From: Candidatus Heimdallarchaeota archaeon
Lineage (GTDB): Archaea; Asgardarchaeota; Heimdallarchaeia; Heimdallarchaeales; Heimdallarchaeaceae
Direction of reading: 5' to 3'
Length of the DNA stretch: 8,031 nt
Assembly (NCBI GenBank): GCA_030668875.1
Contig: DAOVER010000086.1
Span: forward strand, 1 to 8,031
The notes below the pieces were generated by a model. That model was not told the DNA's origin, did no database searches, and was given only the letters and a program-made list of their open reading frames with translations. Positions 1-8,031 of this stretch are shown piece by piece (position 1 is the first letter of the stretch; each line of letters begins with the position of its first letter). Made by a program: the position numbers and the translations under genes.

Positions 1-2
1 AA

Positions 3-2549
3 CCTGAAAATGTTGCGACTTATTTTGCAAACAAAATAATCAAAGATTTTCTTGGAATGGGCTTCTCGATAGATGATACTAAACAGTTTACTACTGGTGA
101 TCTTGAATATAATAGATTCATTGAGTGGCAATATGGAATTCTCAATGAGAAGAACCTTATAACAAAGGGTAGTTATCCCATTCTATGGTGTGTAAATGAT
201 AAGAATGCTGTAGGTGAGGATGATATCAAAGATGGAGATGAACTTAAAGTCGAAGTTAACCAATTTGTGGGTATTAAGTTCCAACTAAATAATGGAATAT
301 TTCTAGTAGCAGCTACTTTGAGACCTGAAACTATTTTCGGAGCAACTAATGTTTGGATTCATCCTGATGCTAAATATGAAGAAATAAAGATTGAAGAAGA
401 ACGATGGATTGTTTCTGAAGAAGCAACCATGAAACTCTTGAAACAAAATCACAGTATAGAAGTTCTAAGGAAATTAAAAGGAAAAGAAATTGTTAATCAA
501 GAAGTTATAGTCCCGATAACTGGGTTAAAAATCCCTATATATCCTGCAACTTTTGTTGATACAGATCATGCAACAGGAGTCGTGTATAGTGTTCCTGCAC
601 ATGCCCCTTATGATTATGCAGCACTAGTAGATTTACAAAAAGATGAAGAAACTATAAGCAATTTTAACCTAAATAGAGATAGATTAGAAGAGATCAAACC
701 AATCTCACTAATTTCTGTCAAAGGATTTGGCGAGTTTCCAGCAGTAGAATTGTGTAATAAACTAGGTGTAAAGAGTCAAAAGGACAGAGAGAAGTTAGAG
801 AAAGCAACTCAAACAATCTACAAAGATGAGTTCTATTCTGGTATAATGAAAGAGAACACTGGAGAATTCAAAGGATTAAAAGTAGAACAAGCCAAGGATG
901 TTGTTGCTGATAAATTAAGAGAAACCAATCTAGCAGCCGAAATATATGAAACATCAAGAAAAGCTTTCTGTCGCTGTGGAGCTCAAATCATAGTAGCTGT
1001 TTTAGAAGAGCAGTATTTCCTAAATTATGGAGATGAAAAATGGAAAGAAACAGCTTTCAAAGCATTAAATTCTATGAGTATTATACCTGAAAAATATCGC
1101 TTAACATTCAAGAATACCTTTGATTGGTTGGATAAGAGACCATGTGTCAGAAAGAGAGGTTTAGGTACTGAGTTTCCTTTAACAAAAGGTGAAGGTTGGA
1201 TTATTGAATCTTTGAGTGATTCTGTCATTTACATGGCATTTTACACAGTTGTTCAAATTATAAGAGAAAATCAAATTAAACCCGAACAATTGAAGCCAGA
1301 GTTATTTGATTTTGTTTTCTTAAACAAGGGAAGTATAGAAAAAGTGATGAAAAGCACAGCCATTTCAGAGGGTTCTATCAATGAAATGAAAGAATCATTT
1401 GAATACTGGTATCCAAATGATTTTCGTCATACAGCAATAACGCACATCTCTAACCATCTCTCATTTACCATCTTCCATCATGTAGCTATTTTCCCAGAAA
1501 AATATTGGATTAAAGCTTTTTCACTAAATGAAAATTTGATTAACAATGGTGAAGCAATGAGCAAAAGTAAAGGAAATGTAATCCCAATTGCACACATACC
1601 AGAGAAATACAGTGTAGATCTGACAAGGTTACATTTGGCTTCTGTTGCAACAGCTGATTCAGTGCTAGATTGGAGAGAATCGGAGGTTAATTATGCTCAA
1701 CAACGATTAAAGAGGTTCTGGGAATATGCAACAAGTGTAACAAGTGTCGAGAATAAGGAGATTAATCTCGCATTTCCTTCGAAAATACTATTATCTTCAG
1801 TTAATTCAAATTTGAAAAAAGCTTTAGATGCAATGGAAAACTACAATGTTCGAGAATTCATTTTGAATGCATTTTTCACAAATCTAAAATCAATAGAGGA
1901 TTATGTAAAATTAACAGAATATATTCCAAAGGAAGAAACAAAAATTGTACTAAGAAAAATCCTTGAGAAAATGATTCTTGTTATGTCGCCGGTTATACCT
2001 CATCTATGTGAAGAACTAAATGAGAGAATGAAAAATGAACAATATATTTCATTAGCTGAAATCCCTGATATAAGTTTTAGTCAGGAGGATAAGTCGTATG
2101 CTTTACAAGCAAAGTATTTGGCTAATCTGCAGGAGGATATTGAACAAGTAATCAAATTAGTGAAATCAACTCCAAGGAAAATTCATGTCTACATTAATGC
2201 TGAATGGAAGAACAAGCTGTATGATTTAGCAAAACGAATTTTCGAAGATGAAGCAGTTAACATTGGCAAAATAATGACAGAAGCTAAACAAGTCTCTGAA
2301 TTAAGTAAATATATGAAAAATGTGTCAGAGATTGCAAAATTAATGATGAAAGATCCAAGCATCTTCAGAATTGAAATGATTAGCTCCTCACTGCAAAAGA
2401 AAGCCGTAGAAGAGTATAAAGATTTTCTGAGTCGAGCCTTCAATGGAGCTGAGATAATCATTCATATGGAAGATCAAAAAGTGAGTTATGATCCGCAAAA
2501 CAAAGCACGAAAATCTCGACCGATGAAACCTGCTTTACTCTTGGAATAA
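3..2549 (+). CDS. leuS: Leucyl-tRNA synthetase, archaeal/eukaryotic type; 5'-partial (N-terminus and HIGH motif lie upstream of the window)
   Basis: The frame is open from position 3 (PENVATYFANKIIKDFLG-MGFSID), so ATG 57 is internal. Motifs: FTTGD..Y..FIEWQ; CP1 editing motifs ATLRPET (312-332) and GVVYSVPAHAPYD (576-614); CRCG; GLGT.FP; WIIESLSDSVIYMAFYT; YWYP..NHL; MSKSKGN (1557-1577); PHLCEEL; and the archaeal LeuRS C-terminus YDPQNKARKSRPMKPALLLE. Several synthetic-site residues are non-canonical (see findings). Confidence 0.93.
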   Translation, partial: PENVATYFANKIIKDFLGMGFSIDDTKQFTTGDLEYNRFIEWQYGILNEKNLITKGSYPILWCVNDKNAVGEDDIKDGDELKVEVNQFVGIKFQLNNGIFLVAATLRPETIFGATNVWIHPDAKYEEIKIEEERWIVSEEATMKLLKQNHSIEVLRKLKGKEIVNQEVIVPITGLKIPIYPATFVDTDHATGVVYSVPAHAPYDYAALVDLQKDEETISNFNLNRDRLEEIKPISLISVKGFGEFPAVELCNKLGVKSQKDREKLEKATQTIYKDEFYSGIMKENTGEFKGLKVEQAKDVVADKLRETNLAAEIYETSRKAFCRCGAQIIVAVLEEQYFLNYGDEKWKETAFKALNSMSIIPEKYRLTFKNTFDWLDKRPCVRKRGLGTEFPLTKGEGWIIESLSDSVIYMAFYTVVQIIRENQIKPEQLKPELFDFVFLNKGSIEKVMKSTAISEGSINEMKESFEYWYPNDFRHTAITHISNHLSFTIFHHVAIFPEKYWIKAFSLNENLINNGEAMSKSKGNVIPIAHIPEKYSVDLTRLHLASVATADSVLDWRESEVNYAQQRLKRFWEYATSVTSVENKEINLAFPSKILLSSVNSNLKKALDAMENYNVREFILNAFFTNLKSIEDYVKLTEYIPKEETKIVLRKILEKMILVMSPVIPHLCEELNERMKNEQYISLAEIPDISFSQEDKSYALQAKYLANLQEDIEQVIKLVKSTPRKIHVYINAEWKNKLYDLAKRIFEDEAVNIGKIMTEAKQVSELSKYMKNVSEIAKLMMKDPSIFRIEMISSSLQKKAVEEYKDFLSRAFNGAEIIIHMEDQKVSYDPQNKARKSRPMKPALLLE

Positions 2550-2827: not shown

Positions 2828-3511
2828 ATGATGTTACCTAATTCGAAAATCGACGGAATAACTTTAAAGAAAATGATGATTACAGCTGCAAGTAACTTGG
2901 AGCAAACCAAAGAAGAAATTAACTCAATAAATGTATTCCCAATACCTGATGGAGATACTGGTGTTAATTTATTTTTAACAATTAGAACTGTTGTAGAGCA
3001 GTTTAATGAAATTAATCCTTCTTCTATCCAAGAAGCAGCACAACTTATTACAAAAGGGAGTTTTCTAGGAGCTAAAGGCAATTCAGGAGTTATTATCTCC
3101 CAATTTTTCCAAGGTTTTAGCTCTGAAGTTGAAGAACATGAGGAAGTAGGAATTGAAGAATTCGCTAGTGCATTAGAAGCAGGAAGTGAATGGGCATATG
3201 AGGCAGTACTACATCCTACTGAGGGAACTATTTTAACAGTTATCAAAGATACCGCAGAAAAAGCTAAAACTATTGCAGCCAAGGGTGGAGATTGGACAGA
3301 AATGATTACAGAAACTTATGCCACAGCTCTCAAATCATTAGAAAACACTCCAAATCTTTTACCTGTGTTAAAAGAAGCTGGAGTTGTTGATGCTGGAGCA
3401 ATGGGATTTGTTAATGTCTGGTTAGGTTGGTGTTTCCAACTGATGGATAGTTTAGGCATTAAAATTGCTCATATCACAGAAGAATTCGAAAAACTACAAA
3501 ATGGCAACTAA
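2828..3511 (+). CDS. Stand-alone DAK2 (DhaL-like) domain protein of the FakA/YloV fatty-acid-kinase N-terminal subfamily
   Basis: FakA-type signatures: NSINVFPIPDGDTG (2921-2962), GAKGNSGVIISQFF, EGTILTV, TPNLLPVLKEAGVVDAG. At 227 aa it covers only the N-terminal ATP-binding domain of the ~550-aa bacterial FakA. The start could be 2828 or 2831. Confidence 0.9.
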   Translation: MMLPNSKIDGITLKKMMITAASNLEQTKEEINSINVFPIPDGDTGVNLFLTIRTVVEQFNEINPSSIQEAAQLITKGSFLGAKGNSGVIISQFFQGFSSEVEEHEEVGIEEFASALEAGSEWAYEAVLHPTEGTILTVIKDTAEKAKTIAAKGGDWTEMITETYATALKSLENTPNLLPVLKEAGVVDAGAMGFVNVWLGWCFQLMDSLGIKIAHITEEFEKLQNGN

Positions 3512-3569
3512 GTGCCACTTTTCTTTTCTTTTATTTGAAAAAAGAATAGAGCTGTTAAATCGTCTATTC
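3512..3569. terminator. Putative bidirectional terminator between the convergent DAK2 gene and thrS
   Basis: A T-tract TTTTCTTTTCTTTTATTT on + is followed by GAAAAAAGAA (a T-tract on -). Small hairpins: TTCTTTT/AAAAGAA and GAATAGA (3544-3550)/TCTATTC (3563-3569). Confidence 0.55.
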
Positions 3570-5483
3570 ATAATTTTCTATTTGATTTAACACTTGTTTT
3601 GCAAAGTCCTTTGGATTTATTCCAAATTCTACTTTGTTACCTCTTGATCTTACAGCTATTGTTTGTGATTCTATCTCTTTATCTCCAACATTAAGGATAT
3701 ATGGAATCTTTTGCATAGTTGCTTGTCTTATTTTGTATTCCATTCTATCTCCACTGAGATCAGTTTCAGCTCTGATTCCAACCCTTTGTAGATTAGCAAC
3801 TACTTCTTTTGCATATTCAATATGATTATCAGTAATTGGAATGACAATTGCTTGAATTGGACTCAACCAAACAGGTAATTTCCCTGCATAGTGCTCAATT
3901 ATGATTGCTAGAAATCTTTCAGTTGCACCATAAATTGTTCGATGAATAACAAATGGTCTGTGCTTCTGTCCATCTTCTCCTATATAGTTTATATCAAATC
4001 TATCTGGTAGATTGAAATCTACTTGAATTGTGGCAAGTTGCCATTTTCTACCAATTGCATCCTTGACATCAACATCAATTTTTGGACCATAAAATGCTCC
4101 TTCTCCTTCCTTAATTTTGTAATCAATGTCGACTCTTTCCATTGCTCTCATCAGAGATTTGGTTGCATGATCCCAACCTTCATCAGTTCCAATAGCGTAT
4201 TCAGGTTTAGTACTGATGAAGAACTCCCATTCTTTAAATCCGAAAGTTTTGTAGAAATGATTTACCATCTCAACAACACCAACAATTTCATCTTCAAGTT
4301 GATCTGGAAGCATGAATAGATGGGCATCATCTTGGGTAAAGCCCCTTATTCTAAATAATCCGTGTAAAGCACCAGATAATTCATACCGATAGACAGTTCC
4401 CATTTCAGAAAATCTAACAGGCAATTCACGATAAGAGTAGGATCGACGGTTATAAATCATCATATGTCCAGGACAATTCATTGGTTTTACATACCATTTT
4501 TCTCCTCGTAAATCTACAGGAAACATGTGTTCTAAGAAATATTCGGTATGACCACTAGTTTCCCAAACCAGTTCTTTAAAGATATGAGGAGTTTGAATAA
4601 TTTTATAACCAGATTTCTTGTGTTCTTTTTCCCAAAAATCACCCATAACCTTGAGAATTGTTCTCCCTTTGGGGAATATTAAGGGCATTCCTGGTCCCCA
4701 TTCATCTGCAGTATCAAAAAGATCAAGTTGCTTTCCAAGTACTCTATGATCTCTTTTCTTTGCTTCTTCAAGCATTTTCAAGTGCTTCTTGAGTTTTTTC
4801 TCCGAAGTAAAAGCTACACCATATACTCTTTGTAGTGATTCGCGCTCTGCATCTCCTCTCCAAAATGCTGAAGAAACATGCAGTATTTTGATTGCTTTTA
4901 CCTTACTGGAACTTGGGATGTGGGGTCCTCTACACAAATCTTTGAAATGTCCTTGATCATGAGAATAGAAAGACATTATTGCTTCTTCAGATTCTTTGAG
5001 AATTTCAACTTTGAATTTGTTCTTCTCTTCAGTCTCATAATACTTAATAGCTTCTTCTTTTGTAATTTCTTCCCTTAGAAAAGGAGCATCAGCTGCAATA
5101 ACTTCTTCAACCTTTTGCTGTATTTTTTCTAAATCCTCTTGAGTAAATGGTTCGTTAATATAGAAATCATAGTAAAAACCAACTGGATCAATACTTGGTC
5201 CTATCGTTGGACGGGCTTCTGGAAATAAATCAACAACAGCACCAGCCATGATATGAGCAGCACTATGATTAAGAACATGGAGGGATTCCTCTGACTTGTC
5301 TGTTAATATCTCAAGTTTGTCATTTTCCTTGATTTTCTTATTCAAATCAACAAGTCTTCCATTCATCTTTGCTGCAATCGCAGCTTCTGCTAACCGTGGG
5401 CTAATTTGTTGTGCCACATCATATACAGTTGCACCCTTTGGTACGTCAATTTTACTACCATCTGGTAGCTCTACTTTAACCAT
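3564..5483 (-). CDS. thrS: Threonyl-tRNA synthetase, bacterial type (TGS/N1 + N2 editing + class II catalytic + anticodon-binding domains)
   Basis: N-terminal TGS domain (VELPDGS); editing motifs HSAAH (H73/H77) and DLCRGPH; RDHRVLG; Zn ligands in KPMNCPGH, FTQDDAH and VIHR; GEGAFYGPKID; TIQVDFNLPDRF; C-terminal anticodon domain (KIRQATMQKIPY). 639 aa, complete. Confidence 0.97.
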   Translation of the reverse strand: MVKVELPDGSKIDVPKGATVYDVAQQISPRLAEAAIAAKMNGRLVDLNKKIKENDKLEILTDKSEESLHVLNHSAAHIMAGAVVDLFPEARPTIGPSIDPVGFYYDFYINEPFTQEDLEKIQQKVEEVIAADAPFLREEITKEEAIKYYETEEKNKFKVEILKESEEAIMSFYSHDQGHFKDLCRGPHIPSSSKVKAIKILHVSSAFWRGDAERESLQRVYGVAFTSEKKLKKHLKMLEEAKKRDHRVLGKQLDLFDTADEWGPGMPLIFPKGRTILKVMGDFWEKEHKKSGYKIIQTPHIFKELVWETSGHTEYFLEHMFPVDLRGEKWYVKPMNCPGHMMIYNRRSYSYRELPVRFSEMGTVYRYELSGALHGLFRIRGFTQDDAHLFMLPDQLEDEIVGVVEMVNHFYKTFGFKEWEFFISTKPEYAIGTDEGWDHATKSLMRAMERVDIDYKIKEGEGAFYGPKIDVDVKDAIGRKWQLATIQVDFNLPDRFDINYIGEDGQKHRPFVIHRTIYGATERFLAIIIEHYAGKLPVWLSPIQAIVIPITDNHIEYAKEVVANLQRVGIRAETDLSGDRMEYKIRQATMQKIPYILNVGDKEIESQTIAVRSRGNKVEFGINPKDFAKQVLNQIENYE

Positions 5484-5734: not shown

Positions 5735-7141
5735 ATGCAAAGAAAACACTTCACAGGGCTCTCAGTTTTTCAGATGATGGCTATGTTTAGAAGAGGAATT
5801 TTCTACTTTTTCTTGAGCATTTATCTGTATGAGTTTCTAGGAGTCTCAACTACAGAGATGACGCTCTTTGCAACCCTACCAATGATTGCTAATATTGTTG
5901 CACAATCAGCTCTATGGGGGCGAATATCAGACAAATTCAAAAAACGTAGACTGTTAATCATTTTTGGTGAGCTTTTTGCTGCAATAGGTTATTTAATTAT
6001 ATTCTGGATACACAATTCTGTCAATAAGGAGAAGGTTGGAGTTGGACATATTGGAGACGTGCTTTTCTCCCAATCTGAGATACTATTACATTATTCGGAT
6101 CTAGCATCATCAGAAATCCAAAGCATACTTCGAATGTCAGCTTATACTATCATAATTGGTTTTACCATTGTTGAAGCTGGTTGGAGTAGCAGCAACCTTG
6201 GATGGTCAACACTAATAGCTGATTTAACAAAGGAATCTGAAAGAAGCAAAGTGATGGGATTATTACAGTTCATCGGAGGGATAGGGAACATTTTGGGAGT
6301 AACTGCGTGTGGATTTCTTTATCAGAATGGGTTAGGATTCTGGAATGGGAATCTGTTCTATGTTTCGTCTAGCATAATGATCTTCAGCTTATTTGCCCTT
6401 CTCATGATTCCAGAGTCGTATGCTGATTTAAAGAATGAATCGAAGGTAGATAAAAGGAACGATAAGAATGATAATGCCGAGACTAAGCCAAGAGTTGATG
6501 ATAGCACGAGTAGGGATTGGGCACGGAAGTTATTCATTTGGTTAATAATAGTCTTGGCAATTGTGAATATAGGTGGAAATAGTATTGGACAACTAATTCA
6601 GATATATGTAAGATTACCAGACACGTTTAATTCCACGGATGTTATAGTAGCACAATTAAGAAACATAAGCAGTATAGCTATGATAATTGGCGGACTAGTA
6701 ATTGGTTTGCTAGCGAAACGTTTTGGAGAAGTAAAGATTCTTTTAGTAGGATTTTTAGTACTTTTCATTGGAACAATATCCTTACCTTTTGCACCTCACA
6801 TCACCATATTCTTCATTTACATGGCGCTGAAAGGAACTTCAAGAGTTTGGATACAGACAACTTCATACGCAATGGTCAATAAAATAGTACCTCTTGAGAA
6901 AAGAGGGAAGATGATGGGATACTATAATTCAGCGTTTTATTTATCTTGGGGATTAGGAGGAACGATGATAACAGGTCCAATTGCAGATACTCTAATAAAT
7001 CAAAACTATAGCGTATCATTTTCATATGAAATTACTTTTTACGTAGCCGCATTTTTAGTATTGGTAGGAATACTGATCTATGTGTTAAAACGTCCAAACG
7101 ATTTTAAGCTATTAGCAGAAGCAACAAATGCAAAAAGATAG
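5735..7141 (+). CDS. Major facilitator superfamily transporter, substrate unknown
   Basis: About 12 hydrophobic segments in a 6+6 arrangement. Motif A WGRISDKFKKRR follows TM2 and its repeat GLLAKRFGEVK follows TM8. Other features: IADLTKESERSKVMG after TM4, VPLEKRGKMMG after TM10, and a charged central loop. Confidence 0.92.
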   Translation: MQRKHFTGLSVFQMMAMFRRGIFYFFLSIYLYEFLGVSTTEMTLFATLPMIANIVAQSALWGRISDKFKKRRLLIIFGELFAAIGYLIIFWIHNSVNKEKVGVGHIGDVLFSQSEILLHYSDLASSEIQSILRMSAYTIIIGFTIVEAGWSSSNLGWSTLIADLTKESERSKVMGLLQFIGGIGNILGVTACGFLYQNGLGFWNGNLFYVSSSIMIFSLFALLMIPESYADLKNESKVDKRNDKNDNAETKPRVDDSTSRDWARKLFIWLIIVLAIVNIGGNSIGQLIQIYVRLPDTFNSTDVIVAQLRNISSIAMIIGGLVIGLLAKRFGEVKILLVGFLVLFIGTISLPFAPHITIFFIYMALKGTSRVWIQTTSYAMVNKIVPLEKRGKMMGYYNSAFYLSWGLGGTMITGPIADTLINQNYSVSFSYEITFYVAAFLVLVGILIYVLKRPNDFKLLAEATNAKR

Positions 7142-7149
7142 CTTGTTTT

Positions 7150-8031
7150 TTATTCAATGAAGCTATAATCCTCAATCTTTATTCCTTTTTGGCGAACCAT
7201 ACTTTGCATCAATTCGTCTCCTTCAGCTTTCAGAATTCTAACTGGAATATCTGGAAAACGAGGGTGATTTGTTATTACTCTTGGTTTGAAGTTAACAATA
7301 GCCCTTATATCGTCAAGTAGAGATTTAAGAGAAGCTTGTGTCCCAGCATATTTTGATCCTGCACACAAAATGATTACCTTAGCACTATCCCAAGGATTTG
7401 GAAGTAATCCAATTATGCCTGTTAGTAAACCCAAATCTGAATGTTCGCTATATGTCTCATTTGTGAAAGAGCTGTAAATATTCTTGCTTTGAGGTGACAA
7501 AAAACGTATTGGAAGGCTATCACCATATAAATTCATAATCTCCGAAGTTATTTTATTTACTGCCCCTGAACCTATCACTAGCATATTTTCAGCTTTTGCA
7601 GGTCCTGTCTGATAATCTAATAACGATTCAATTAGTATCTTATCTATTGGAATTTTCTTAATTTTGTGTGCCCAATATGTAAACATTTGTGTTATTTCAG
7701 GAGTATAAAGAGCATCAATTGTACTTGCTGCATCTGTCATCCATGAACCAAAGACCACATTCAGTTGGAAACTATCACCAAGCATTAAACAATCTGGAAA
7801 ATCGTTCCAAGTATATTGAAAATCAAAACTAAGTTTTGCAGGCCACTCAATATCTTCATATTCAAGGAGTAGATTTCTGAAGAATTCACTAGAAAGAAGT
7901 TCATGATTTGGTGAGTAAAAGACTCTATTTGAGCTCCCCAGTTTAACTTCTTGTCTCTTAATCAGTTGTAACTCCGTAAGTCTGTCGAGGATATTGTATA
8001 TAGTGCTTCTGTTTGTTATTGGTAAACGATT
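7150..8031 (-). CDS. Putative transcriptional regulator: winged HTH plus a C-terminal S-layer-C-like alpha/beta domain; 5'-partial, at least 293 aa
   Basis: I translated the frame upstream of ATG 7785 and found no stop up to the window edge: NRLPITNRSTIYNILDRLTELQLIKRQEVKLGSSNRVFYS (recognition helix plus wing). The C-terminal part has NMLVIGSGAVNKIT..LPIRF..IYS..TY..GII..NPW..VIILCAGSKYAGT, which resembles the NLILIGGP..N motif family of S-layer C-terminal-like domains. There is no TM segment in the visible part. Confidence 0.75.
   Translation of the reverse strand, partial: NRLPITNRSTIYNILDRLTELQLIKRQEVKLGSSNRVFYSPNHELLSSEFFRNLLLEYEDIEWPAKLSFDFQYTWNDFPDCLMLGDSFQLNVVFGSWMTDAASTIDALYTPEITQMFTYWAHKIKKIPIDKILIESLLDYQTGPAKAENMLVIGSGAVNKITSEIMNLYGDSLPIRFLSPQSKNIYSSFTNETYSEHSDLGLLTGIIGLLPNPWDSAKVIILCAGSKYAGTQASLKSLLDDIRAIVNFKPRVITNHPRFPDIPVRILKAEGDELMQSMVRQKGIKIEDYSFIE

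What the first reader, a model, noticed from the sequence alone, without database searches (positions are those of the whole stretch)
1425..1460. SGKDL replaced by TAITH, giving a bacterial-like I-x-H-x-x-x-H register
Seen: R-H-T-A-I-T-H-I-S-N-H-L. Known: the acidic residue of this class Ia motif (D in archaeal GKDL, E in bacterial GGIEHAIMHL) contacts the adenylate ribose, and here it is Thr. Position-for-position, TAITHISNHL shares I, H and H-L with E. coli GGIEHAIMHL, so an archaeal scaffold carries the bacterial first His. Inference: convergence or retention of an ancestral pocket residue.
Basis: partly seen in the sequence, partly recalled or inferred. Interest (0 to 1): 0.6.

Follow-up and report, generated by a model that had tools for sequence, protein, structure and literature searches.

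The report
LeuRS subfamily with a relocated histidine
The odd TAITH motif is real, but it marks a large, ancient branch of archaeal leucyl-tRNA synthetases that appears to place a leucine-binding histidine where bacteria do, so it is a clade signature, not a quirk of this gene.

Summary
Observation confirmed. Window 1425-1460 encodes R-H-T-A-I-T-H-I-S-N-H-L in the single-copy archaeal-type LeuRS of a Heimdallarchaeaceae genome. It aligns without gaps to P. horikoshii RCSGKDLIPNHL and E. coli YIGGIEHAIMHL.

The motif is not peculiar to this gene. In 271 sequences from Asgard archaea, Desulfurococcaceae, Nitrosotalea, Thermoplasmatota and DPANN, the form is R-H-T-[AGS]-x-x-H-[IL]-x-N-H-L. The His is invariant. 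The former acidic position is free (A, P, G, H, T and others), and Thr occurs in only 9 of 271. These sequences form one supported clade.

Only two non-conservative columns separate this clade from the GKDL type across the protein. One is the priming-loop Leu/His. The other is the CP1-hairpin His/Asp (GDHD to GEDD, window 213-224). The His lost here is human His251, which lies within 4 A of the bound leucine, and H251D abolishes human LeuRS activity. The His gained corresponds to the bacterial His that hydrogen-bonds the leucine carboxylate.

Best reading: a functional housekeeping LeuRS (dN/dS 0.05-0.11) with a relocated substrate-contacting His. Whether the His is retained or convergent is unresolved. 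I found no prior description and no solved structure of this subfamily. Earlier scan notes on this same window proposed the same swap; none came from other DNA.

The parts
3..2549 (+). Archaeal/eukaryal-type leucyl-tRNA synthetase. It lacks its first 127 codons because the contig starts here. The N-terminus with HIGH (FHLGH) is on G000:C46 and overlaps the window by 138 identical bases.
   Evidence: NF008957 905.8 bits (cut-off 677) and TIGR00395 784 bits (cut-off 648.5). End-to-end alignment to 1WZ2, E 1.5e-177. N-terminus found. It is the only LeuRS in the genome.
1425..1460 (+). Priming-loop motif R-H-T-A-I-T-H-I-S-N-H-L: the end of a Rossmann-fold strand and the start of the following helix. 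This is the finding itself.
   Evidence: The AF2 model of the 89%-identical P0004 has a strand at 601-605 and a helix at 606-623, pLDDT about 90.
1443..1445 (+). His608 (CAC). It is invariant in the subfamily, stands at the position of Leu in GKDL, and aligns with bacterial Ec H533 / Ng H547.
   Evidence: 271 of 271 class-2 sequences have His, 133 of 134 class-1 have Leu, 21 of 21 class-3 have His. The role of the bacterial His is from PMC9424281.
1440..1442 (+). Thr607 (ACG), at the position of the D/E of GKD / GIE. This position is free in the subfamily.
   Evidence: Class-2 residues here: A 120, P 88, G 23, H 15, T 9, S 6, N 4, D 1. The Thr codon varies synonymously (ACG/ACA/ACT) among close relatives.
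213..224 (+). CP1-hairpin motif G-E-D-D, replacing G-D-H-D. Asp at 219-221 (full-length D200) takes the place of human His251 / P. horikoshii His196 and aligns with bacterial E169.
   Evidence: Column scans. hhalign to E. coli ...LANEQV. Numbering to human 251 derived. Human data from PMC7229842 and PMC4138327.
1554..1568 (+). KMSKS loop, here A-M-S-K-S. The first Lys is lost in this sub-lineage and the second Lys is kept.
   Evidence: the first Lys is Ala in 25 class-2 sequences, and the second Lys is present in 270 of 270.
72..83 (+). D-D-T-K in place of the widely conserved D-W-x-R. The Trp is lost in the Heimdall/Hod/Loki subclade.
   Evidence: Trp in 168 of 270 class-2 and 124 of 134 class-1 sequences. 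The own lineage has D/T/I/V at this position.
312..332 (+). Thr-rich A-T-L-R-P-E-T of the CP1 editing domain, intact.
   Evidence: Invariant columns A104-T110 in alignment A1. PF13603 editing-domain hit.

Best explanation
The gene encodes the cell's only, working leucyl-tRNA synthetase. It belongs to a deep subfamily of archaeal-type LeuRS, here called class 2. In class 2 the imidazole beside the bound leucine comes from the priming loop (His608, as in bacterial LeuRS). In P. horikoshii and eukaryotic LeuRS (class 1) it comes from the CP1 hairpin (human His251). In class 2 the CP1-hairpin position is Asp (D200, matching the bacterial acidic E169), and the priming loop has lost its carboxylate. 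The backbone amide of Ala605 (Gly in other LeuRS) can still hold the ribose hydroxyls. Thr607 is a lineage-specific filler at a position that is no longer constrained.

Shown: the register, the clade-wide pattern, single copy, purifying selection, and overall LeuRS-A fold and domains.

Inferred: that His608 contacts the leucine carboxylate or adenylate, and that the two substitutions are functionally coupled.
For: Register.

Clade: class 2 is one clade with the motif columns removed (FastTree support 100). In the IQ-TREE tree the core class-2 group has SH-aLRT 99.

Coupling: in 430 sequences, CP1-Asp with no acid and priming-loop His occurs 265 times. CP1-His with D/E and Leu occurs 125 times. 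His never occurs at both sites. Only four of about 975 columns sort the classes: 200 H/D, 206 E/D, 604 S/T, 608 L/H.

Literature: human His251 is within 4 A of the leucine of LeuAMS and 2.6 A from Tyr54 OH (PMC7229842). H251D abolishes activation and aminoacylation, and D250E is neutral (PMC4138327). Class 2 has E-D at these two positions. Ng H547 H-bonds the Leu carboxylate, the G544 amide binds the ribose OHs, and CP1-hairpin E169 packs on the helix after the priming loop (PMC9424281).

Housekeeping role: one LeuRS in the own genome. Each of the 71 (of 81) sampled genomes of the phylum with a match has one LeuRS-A gene, one of them in two pieces. Three class-2 genomes from other phyla, including Nitrosotalea, also have one each. 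HIGH, the second Lys of KMSKS, the editing domain and the C-terminal domain are intact. dN/dS is 0.11 and 0.05, with only synonymous changes in the motif. The AF2 model has pLDDT 91 and TM 0.81-0.86 to 1WZ2/1WKB and 0.84 to human LRS.
Against: No class-2 LeuRS has been assayed or solved, as far as I could find. I could not measure distances in the model because no coordinates are returned. The two diagnostic changes arose on a single branch, so their co-occurrence is one evolutionary event, not repeated covariation. A few class-1 sequences lack the CP1 His (A/S/N/G, about 7) and have no priming-loop His, so an imidazole at either site is not absolutely required. Nothing identified here replaces the catalytic role assigned to Ec E532. 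This sub-lineage also lost the DW.R Trp and the first Lys of KMSKS, so altered kinetics cannot be excluded.
Confidence: 0.68

Rival explanations
1. The CP1-hairpin Asp (D200) is the direct functional replacement of the lost priming-loop carboxylate. It would contact the ribose of the adenylate or of A76. This would be a true reciprocal His/Asp exchange, not a return to a bacterial-like layout.
For: There is strict reciprocity: H to D at column 200 and D/E to x, L to H at 607/608. Both sites border the same pocket according to PMC7229842 and PMC9424281. An earlier scan note proposed the same idea.
Against: The aligned bacterial residue E169 contacts Y554 and W223 of the helix and CP2, not the ribose (PMC9424281). 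Bacteria and class 3 have an acid at 607 whether or not position 200 is acidic. No distance could be measured.
Confidence: 0.25
2. The differences are historical accidents fixed on one branch. They would have no functional coupling and be kept afterwards only by ordinary active-site conservatism.
For: There is a single origin on the tree. About seven class-1 sequences manage without either His.
Against: These are the only non-conservative diagnostic columns in about 975. Both contact the substrate in solved relatives. The natural class-2 state at position 200 is the very substitution that kills human LeuRS, so some compensation must exist.
Confidence: 0.15
3. The protein is a diverged LeuRS-like paralogue with a non-translational role. 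It would resemble Sulfolobaceae LeuRS-I, which makes Leu-AMP but cannot charge tRNA.
For: Several catalytic-core motifs deviate together: the priming loop, GEDD, DDTK and AMSKS.
Against: No other LeuRS of any type is found in the genome, though it is only 92% complete. Relatives, including single-contig genomes, carry one copy. The editing domain and C-terminal domain are canonical, unlike LeuRS-I (PMC9437257). dN/dS is 0.05-0.11.
Confidence: 0.04
4. The His was gained convergently in an ancestor that had the GKDL state, not retained from the common ancestor of all LeuRS.
For: With bacterial outgroups, class-1 lineages sit at the unresolved base of LeuRS-A. By my recollection of the class Ia family motifs (not checked here), MetRS and ValRS have a hydrophobic residue after the Asp.
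Against: Bacteria, class 3 (GGKEH) and class 2 all carry the His. Class 2 and class 3 group together at SH-aLRT 93. If class 1 is one group, retention needs one loss.
Confidence: 0.35

Closest known systems
Pyrococcus horikoshii LeuRS (PDB 1WZ2, 1WKB) and human cytosolic LeuRS (6LPF, 6KID): class-1 LeuRS-A
   Same: The domain order, length, HIGH, KMSKS loop, CP1 editing domain and archaeal C-terminal tRNA-binding domain are the same. Identity is 37-40% end to end and TM-score 0.81-0.86.
   Different: The priming loop is SGKDL versus TAITH here. The CP1 hairpin is GDHD versus GEDD here. The substrate-proximal His is at human 251 in class 1 and absent at that position here.
Bacterial LeuRS (E. 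coli, N. gonorrhoeae, T. thermophilus): LeuRS-B
   Same: The His is at the same priming-loop position (Ec H533 / Ng H547). An acidic residue stands at the aligned CP1-hairpin position (E169).
   Different: It is a different family: TIGR00396 scores 115 bits against a cut-off of 548. The editing-domain insertion point differs and there is a leucine-specific domain. The priming-loop Glu (E532) is kept in bacteria and lost here.
Class-3 LeuRS-A (N-L-G-G-K-E-H-x-x-V-H-F), seen in Woesearchaeota-like genomes
   Same: It has the archaeal-type architecture and the priming-loop His. It groups with class 2 at SH-aLRT 93.
   Different: It keeps the Glu, has T/A/S/M at the CP1-hairpin position, and has a K[IL]SKSKGG loop.
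Sulfolobaceae LeuRS-I (duplicated, non-charging LeuRS)
   Same: It is an archaeal LeuRS with deviating conserved motifs.
   Different: LeuRS-I is a second copy with a disrupted CP1 and an acidic, divergent C-terminus (PMC9437257). The gene here is the sole copy, with both domains canonical.

Membership tests
Archaeal/eukaryal-type leucyl-tRNA synthetase (LeuRS-A; TIGR00395, NF008957) | Profile score above the curated cut-off | tested here: met
   NF008957 905.8 bits against 677, and TIGR00395 784.1 bits against 648.5, even without the first 127 residues.
Archaeal/eukaryal-type leucyl-tRNA synthetase (LeuRS-A; TIGR00395, NF008957) | HIGH signature | tested here: met
   PYASGAFHLGH is on the adjoining contig end (L002:1120-1638), joined by a 46-residue identical overlap.
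Archaeal/eukaryal-type leucyl-tRNA synthetase (LeuRS-A; TIGR00395, NF008957) | KMSKS loop with the second, catalytic Lys | tested here: met
   The loop is A-M-S-K-S-K-G-N. The first Lys is Ala. The second Lys is present, as in 270 of 270 class-2 sequences.
Archaeal/eukaryal-type leucyl-tRNA synthetase (LeuRS-A; TIGR00395, NF008957) | CP1 editing domain with the Thr-rich motif, and the archaeal C-terminal domain | tested here: met
   ATLRPET and SVPAHAPYDY are present and PF13603 hits. The alignment to 1WZ2 runs to its last residue, 967.
Archaeal/eukaryal-type leucyl-tRNA synthetase (LeuRS-A; TIGR00395, NF008957) | Overall fold | tested here: met
   The AF2 model of the 89%-identical P0004 (same motifs) has pLDDT 91. 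Foldseek gives TM 0.81/0.83 to 1WZ2 and 0.84/0.82 to human 6LPF.
Archaeal/eukaryal-type leucyl-tRNA synthetase (LeuRS-A; TIGR00395, NF008957) | Acidic residue in the priming loop (G-K-D/E) | tested here: not met
   It is Thr here and non-acidic in 270 of 271 class-2 sequences. This is a feature of the characterised members, not of the profile.
Archaeal/eukaryal-type leucyl-tRNA synthetase (LeuRS-A; TIGR00395, NF008957) | CP1-hairpin His (human His251, G/M-D-H-D) | tested here: not met
   It is Asp here, and Asp in 98% of class 2.
Archaeal/eukaryal-type leucyl-tRNA synthetase (LeuRS-A; TIGR00395, NF008957) | Leucine activation and tRNA-Leu charging | not testable with these tools
   This is inferred from single copy in the genome and relatives and dN/dS 0.05-0.11.
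Bacterial-type LeuRS (TIGR00396) | Profile score above the cut-off | tested here: not met
   115.4 bits against 548.4. Only the His and the CP1-hairpin acid are bacterial-like.
Sulfolobaceae LeuRS-I-like non-charging paralogue | A second LeuRS copy with a disrupted CP1 and a divergent acidic C-terminal domain | tested here: not met
   It is the sole copy. CP1 and the C-terminus align fully to 1WZ2. The description of LeuRS-I is from PMC9437257.

The most novel reading that the evidence does not exclude
Archaeal-type LeuRS exists in two mutually exclusive, epistatically locked active-site layouts. In one the His is on the CP1 hairpin and the acid is in the priming loop. In the other the acid is on the CP1 hairpin and the His is in the priming loop. 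The layout used by most Asgard archaea (Heimdall-, Hod-, Loki-, Thor-, Odin-type) is not the one eukaryotes inherited. The eukaryotic layout occurs in only one sampled Asgard family, of the same order as this genome. The two columns would then be both a natural experiment in active-site rewiring and a discrete marker for the origin of eukaryotic LeuRS.
Probability: 0.4. Interest if true: 0.6.

Novelty: new variant of a known kind. Interest (0 to 1): 0.42.

Why it matters
LeuRS is a drug target and a nutrient sensor in humans, and its active site is usually described from bacterial, Pyrococcus and human enzymes. A large archaeal branch includes cultured Lokiarchaeum, Thermogladius and Thermosphaera, and a Nitrosotalea MAG. 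In that branch, the residue that inactivates human LeuRS when introduced (H251D) is the native state. The branch also lacks the carboxylate considered important in E. coli (E532). This gives a ready-made test of epistasis in an essential enzyme, using double-mutant swaps in either background. It also shows that what counts as a conserved catalytic residue depends on which subfamily was crystallised. The same two columns give a simple marker of LeuRS type. Within Asgard archaea three types coexist: class 2, class 1 and bacterial. That bears on how far single aaRS trees can be used for eukaryote origins. For this window alone the result is ordinary: a normal housekeeping gene carrying its clade's signature.

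Tried and rejected
1. An IQ-TREE search with the site-heterogeneous mixture model on 85 rows did not finish in two 300-s runs. I fell back on LG+G4 with 59 rows and on FastTree. Deep nodes and the root therefore remain weak.
2. The predicted structure returns no coordinates. The His608-ligand and D200-ribose distances could not be measured. Proximity rests on the published human and Neisseria structures.
3. The Weitzel et al. LeuRS-I paper could not be opened by the DOI I recalled from memory, which may be wrong. I used the review PMC9437257 instead.
4. Literature searches for a prior description of this subfamily or motif found nothing relevant. Subscription journals are not covered.
5. Bacterial gene-fragment transfer was rejected. 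Only 4 of 10 motif residues match E. coli, of which only the two His and the Leu are conserved in the clade, and the flanks are archaeal-type.
6. Assembly artefact or contamination was rejected. The peptide is identical in independent assemblies, with synonymous codon differences where the DNA was read.
7. An RNA or opposite-strand feature at the site was rejected. There are no Rfam or tRNA hits in the window and no sizeable antisense ORF over 1425-1460.
8. Co-resident class-1 and class-2 paralogues were looked for and not found in 5 non-Asgard genomes or in the 81 sampled Asgard genomes.
Full report
WHAT IS THERE

The window begins at base 1 of contig C51 of a 3.23-Mb, 99-contig genome that is 92% complete. 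ORF 3..2549 (+) runs off the 5' end. It translates to 848 residues (P0002). It scores 905.8 bits on NF008957 and 784 bits on TIGR00395, both above the curated cut-offs for leucine--tRNA ligase of the archaeal type. It aligns end to end with P. horikoshii LeuRS 1WZ2 at E 1.5e-177.

The missing N-terminus, with HIGH as F-H-L-G-H, lies at the end of contig C46 and overlaps the window by 46 identical residues. The full protein has 975 residues. The nearest database proteins, at 81-90% identity, are labelled Candidatus Heimdallarchaeaceae. GC content is 32-37%.

THE OBSERVATION

Bases 1425-1460 read R-H-T-A-I-T-H-I-S-N-H-L, in frame. phmmer places this opposite RCSGKDLIPNHL of P. horikoshii and the corresponding GKDL segment of human LeuRS, without gaps. 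MAFFT and hhalign place it opposite YIGGIEHAIMHL of E. coli, also without gaps. The anchors are the invariant W-Y-P-x-D upstream and H-L downstream.

An AlphaFold2 model of the 89%-identical homologue P0004, which carries the same motifs, has mean pLDDT 91. It puts residues 601-605 in a strand and 606-623 in a helix. That is the expected strand-loop-helix position of this class Ia element. Foldseek finds 1WZ2/1WKB at TM 0.81-0.86 and human LRS at 0.84.

IT IS A CLADE SIGNATURE

All 120 best homologues carry R-H-T-[AGS]-x-x-H-[IL]-x-N-H-L. They include Heimdall-, Hod-, Kari-, Loki-, Thor-, Odin- and Sigyn-archaeota and Bathyarchaeia.

A search of one representative per 50% cluster, together with 80 named genomes, shows three motif classes in archaeal-type LeuRS:
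- Class 1, R-x-S-[GA]-[KR]-[DE]-L: Thermococci, Methanosarcinales, many Bathyarchaeia, Ignicoccus, Fervidicoccus and eukaryotic cytosolic enzymes.
- Class 2, the present form: Asgard archaea, cultured Thermogladius and Thermosphaera, Nitrosotalea, Thermoplasmatota, and Aenigm-, Nano- and Woese-archaeota.
- Class 3, N-L-G-G-K-E-H-x-x-V-H-F: Woesearchaeota-like genomes.

With the motif columns removed, class 2 is one clade. FastTree on 175 rows gives support 100. IQ-TREE LG+G4 on 59 rows gives SH-aLRT 99 for the core.

Within 271 class-2 sequences, R602, H608, N611 and H612 are invariant and T604 is 269/271. Position 607, the former Asp/Glu, is A 120, P 88, G 23, H 15, T 9, S 6, N 4, D 1. So the Thr on which the finding centres is a minority filler at an unconstrained position. 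The Ile shared with E. coli is also variable. The meaningful shared residue is the His.

A COUPLED SECOND CHANGE

I scanned every column for residues fixed in class 2 and rare in class 1. Only four of about 975 columns sort the classes cleanly:
- column 200: D versus H
- column 206: D versus E
- column 604: T versus S
- column 608: H versus L

Column 200 lies in the CP1 hairpin, where class 1 has G-D-H-D and class 2 has G-E-D-D (window 213-224). Across 430 sequences the combinations are as follows:
- CP1-Asp, no acid, priming-loop His: 265 sequences
- CP1-His, Asp/Glu, Leu: 125 sequences
- CP1-T/A/S/M, Glu, His (class 3 and bacteria): about 22 sequences
- His at both sites: none

By the alignment, the class-1 His is human His251. 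The human structure paper reports His251 within 4 A of the leucine of LeuAMS and 2.6 A from Tyr54 OH (PMC7229842). Mutagenesis showed that H251D abolishes activation and aminoacylation while D250E is neutral (PMC4138327). Class 2 has exactly E-D at these two positions.

hhalign aligns the class-2 Asp with E. coli E169 of ...LANEQV. [quoted passage not shown] H547 of that loop hydrogen-bonds the leucine carboxylate, and the amide of G544 holds both ribose hydroxyls (PMC9424281). E. coli E532, the acid missing here, lies close to the ribose hydroxyl in the aminoacylation complex and matters for catalysis (PMC5059758).

I saw the earlier scan notes on this window only, after my scan. They had proposed the same His/Asp swap from the sequence alone. 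My contribution is the test across 430 sequences and against the literature.

IS THE ENZYME FUNCTIONAL?

The own genome has no other LeuRS of either type. Among 81 sampled genomes of the phylum, 71 have a match. Each of those has a single LeuRS-A gene, in one case split into two fragments. Five genomes from other phyla each have one copy, of class 1 or class 2.

HIGH, the second Lys of KMSKS, the Thr-rich and Asp motifs of the editing domain and the C-terminal domain are all in place. dN/dS against two close relatives is 0.11 (dS 0.50) and 0.05. The motif codons differ only synonymously. This differs from Sulfolobaceae LeuRS-I, a second copy with a broken CP1 and a divergent C-terminus (PMC9437257).

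The sub-lineage does carry further deviations: D-W-x-R is D-D-T-K, and KMSKS is AMSKS. These are shared with many single-copy relatives.

MECHANISM, AND WHAT IS INFERRED

Shown:
- the register
- the clade-wide invariance of His608 and Asp200
- their mutual exclusivity with the class-1 pair
- single copy and purifying selection

Inferred:
- His608 does the job of bacterial H533/H547, contacting the leucine carboxylate or adenylate. This would make the CP1-hairpin His dispensable.
- Ala605 keeps the backbone contact to the ribose.
- The priming-loop carboxylate is either dispensable in this layout or replaced by something not identified.

Whether Asp200 takes over a ribose or A76 contact is possible but untested (rival 1). 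The aligned bacterial E169 does something else.

RETENTION OR CONVERGENCE

Bacteria, class 3 and class 2 share the His, and class 2 groups with class 3 at SH-aLRT 93. That favours retention with loss in class 1. However, class-1 lineages form an unresolved base with a long bacterial outgroup, and the mixture-model search did not finish. I leave this open at roughly 60:40 for retention.

COMPARISON AND NOVELTY

The protein is a member of LeuRS-A by profile, domains and fold. It fails two features that hold for every characterised or crystallised LeuRS-A: the priming-loop acid and the CP1-hairpin His. All solved LeuRS-A structures are class 1. I found no paper describing the class-2 layout, though the library lacks most subscription journals. 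I file it as a new variant of a known kind. For this window alone it is an ordinary housekeeping gene with its clade's signature.

WIDER CONTEXT SEEN IN PASSING

Within the phylum, one family of the same order as this genome carries class-1 LeuRS, with eukaryote-like T-G-[DE]-H-D-R, R-S-S-G-K-D-L and P-Y-x-N-G-x-L-H-L-G-H. Another family has no LeuRS-A match at E <= 1e-60 in 7 of its 9 sampled genomes. The five of these that I searched further carry a bacterial-type LeuRS instead. Eukaryotic sequences nest inside class 1.

Noticed in passing
window 1-138; L002:1120-1638 (G000:C46 end): The LeuRS gene is split by an assembly break. The first 173 residues, including HIGH, sit at the end of contig C46. 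The two contig ends share 138 identical bases, so C46 and C51 are adjacent.
   Followed up: yes
G008, G019, G030, G040, G065 (loci L101-L105): One family of the same phylum (f10) has no archaeal-type LeuRS match at E <= 1e-60 in 7 of its 9 sampled genomes. The five I searched further have none at all and carry a bacterial-type enzyme (LANEQV, YIGGIEHAIMHL, open frames of 854-939 aa). This resembles the known case of Halobacteria.
   Followed up: partly
G015:C31, G036:C99, G054:C9 (loci L098-L100): A family of the same order as the window's genome carries class-1 LeuRS (TG[DE]HDR, RSSGKDL, PY[IV]NG[KR]LHLGH). This is the layout of eukaryotic cytosolic LeuRS, whereas most Asgard genomes carry class 2. 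In my trees it is not the immediate sister of eukaryotes.
   Followed up: partly
window 72-83 and 1554-1568: There are further lineage-specific deviations in the same protein. D-W-x-R is D-D-T-K; the Trp is lost across the Heimdall/Hod/Loki subclade. KMSKS is AMSKS here and KMGKS in neighbouring lineages. The second Lys is always kept.
   Followed up: partly
P0140, P0176, P0201, P0204 and relatives: A third LeuRS-A group (N-L-G-G-K-E-H-x-x-V-H-F, K[IL]SKSKGG) keeps both the bacterial Glu and His and has T/A/S/M at the CP1-hairpin position. One member is labelled Woesearchaeota.
   Followed up: partly
L032 (Candidatus Hermodarchaeota): This is the only class-2 sequence with an acid back at the free position (RHTAYDH). 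It still has G-E-D-D in the CP1 hairpin.
   Followed up: no
window 2828-3511 (+): A 227-residue ORF consists of a DAK2 domain only (PF02734, E 1e-38). No partner kinase or binding domain lies beside it in the window.
   Followed up: no
window 3564-5483 (-): A threonyl-tRNA synthetase with TGS, SAD, class II core and anticodon domains, which is the bacterial/eukaryal layout. It lies convergent to the DAK2 ORF.
   Followed up: no
window 5735-7141 (+) and 7150-8031 (-): The first is an MFS transporter (PF07690, E 4e-55). The second is an ORF running off the window end with no Pfam hit.
   Followed up: no
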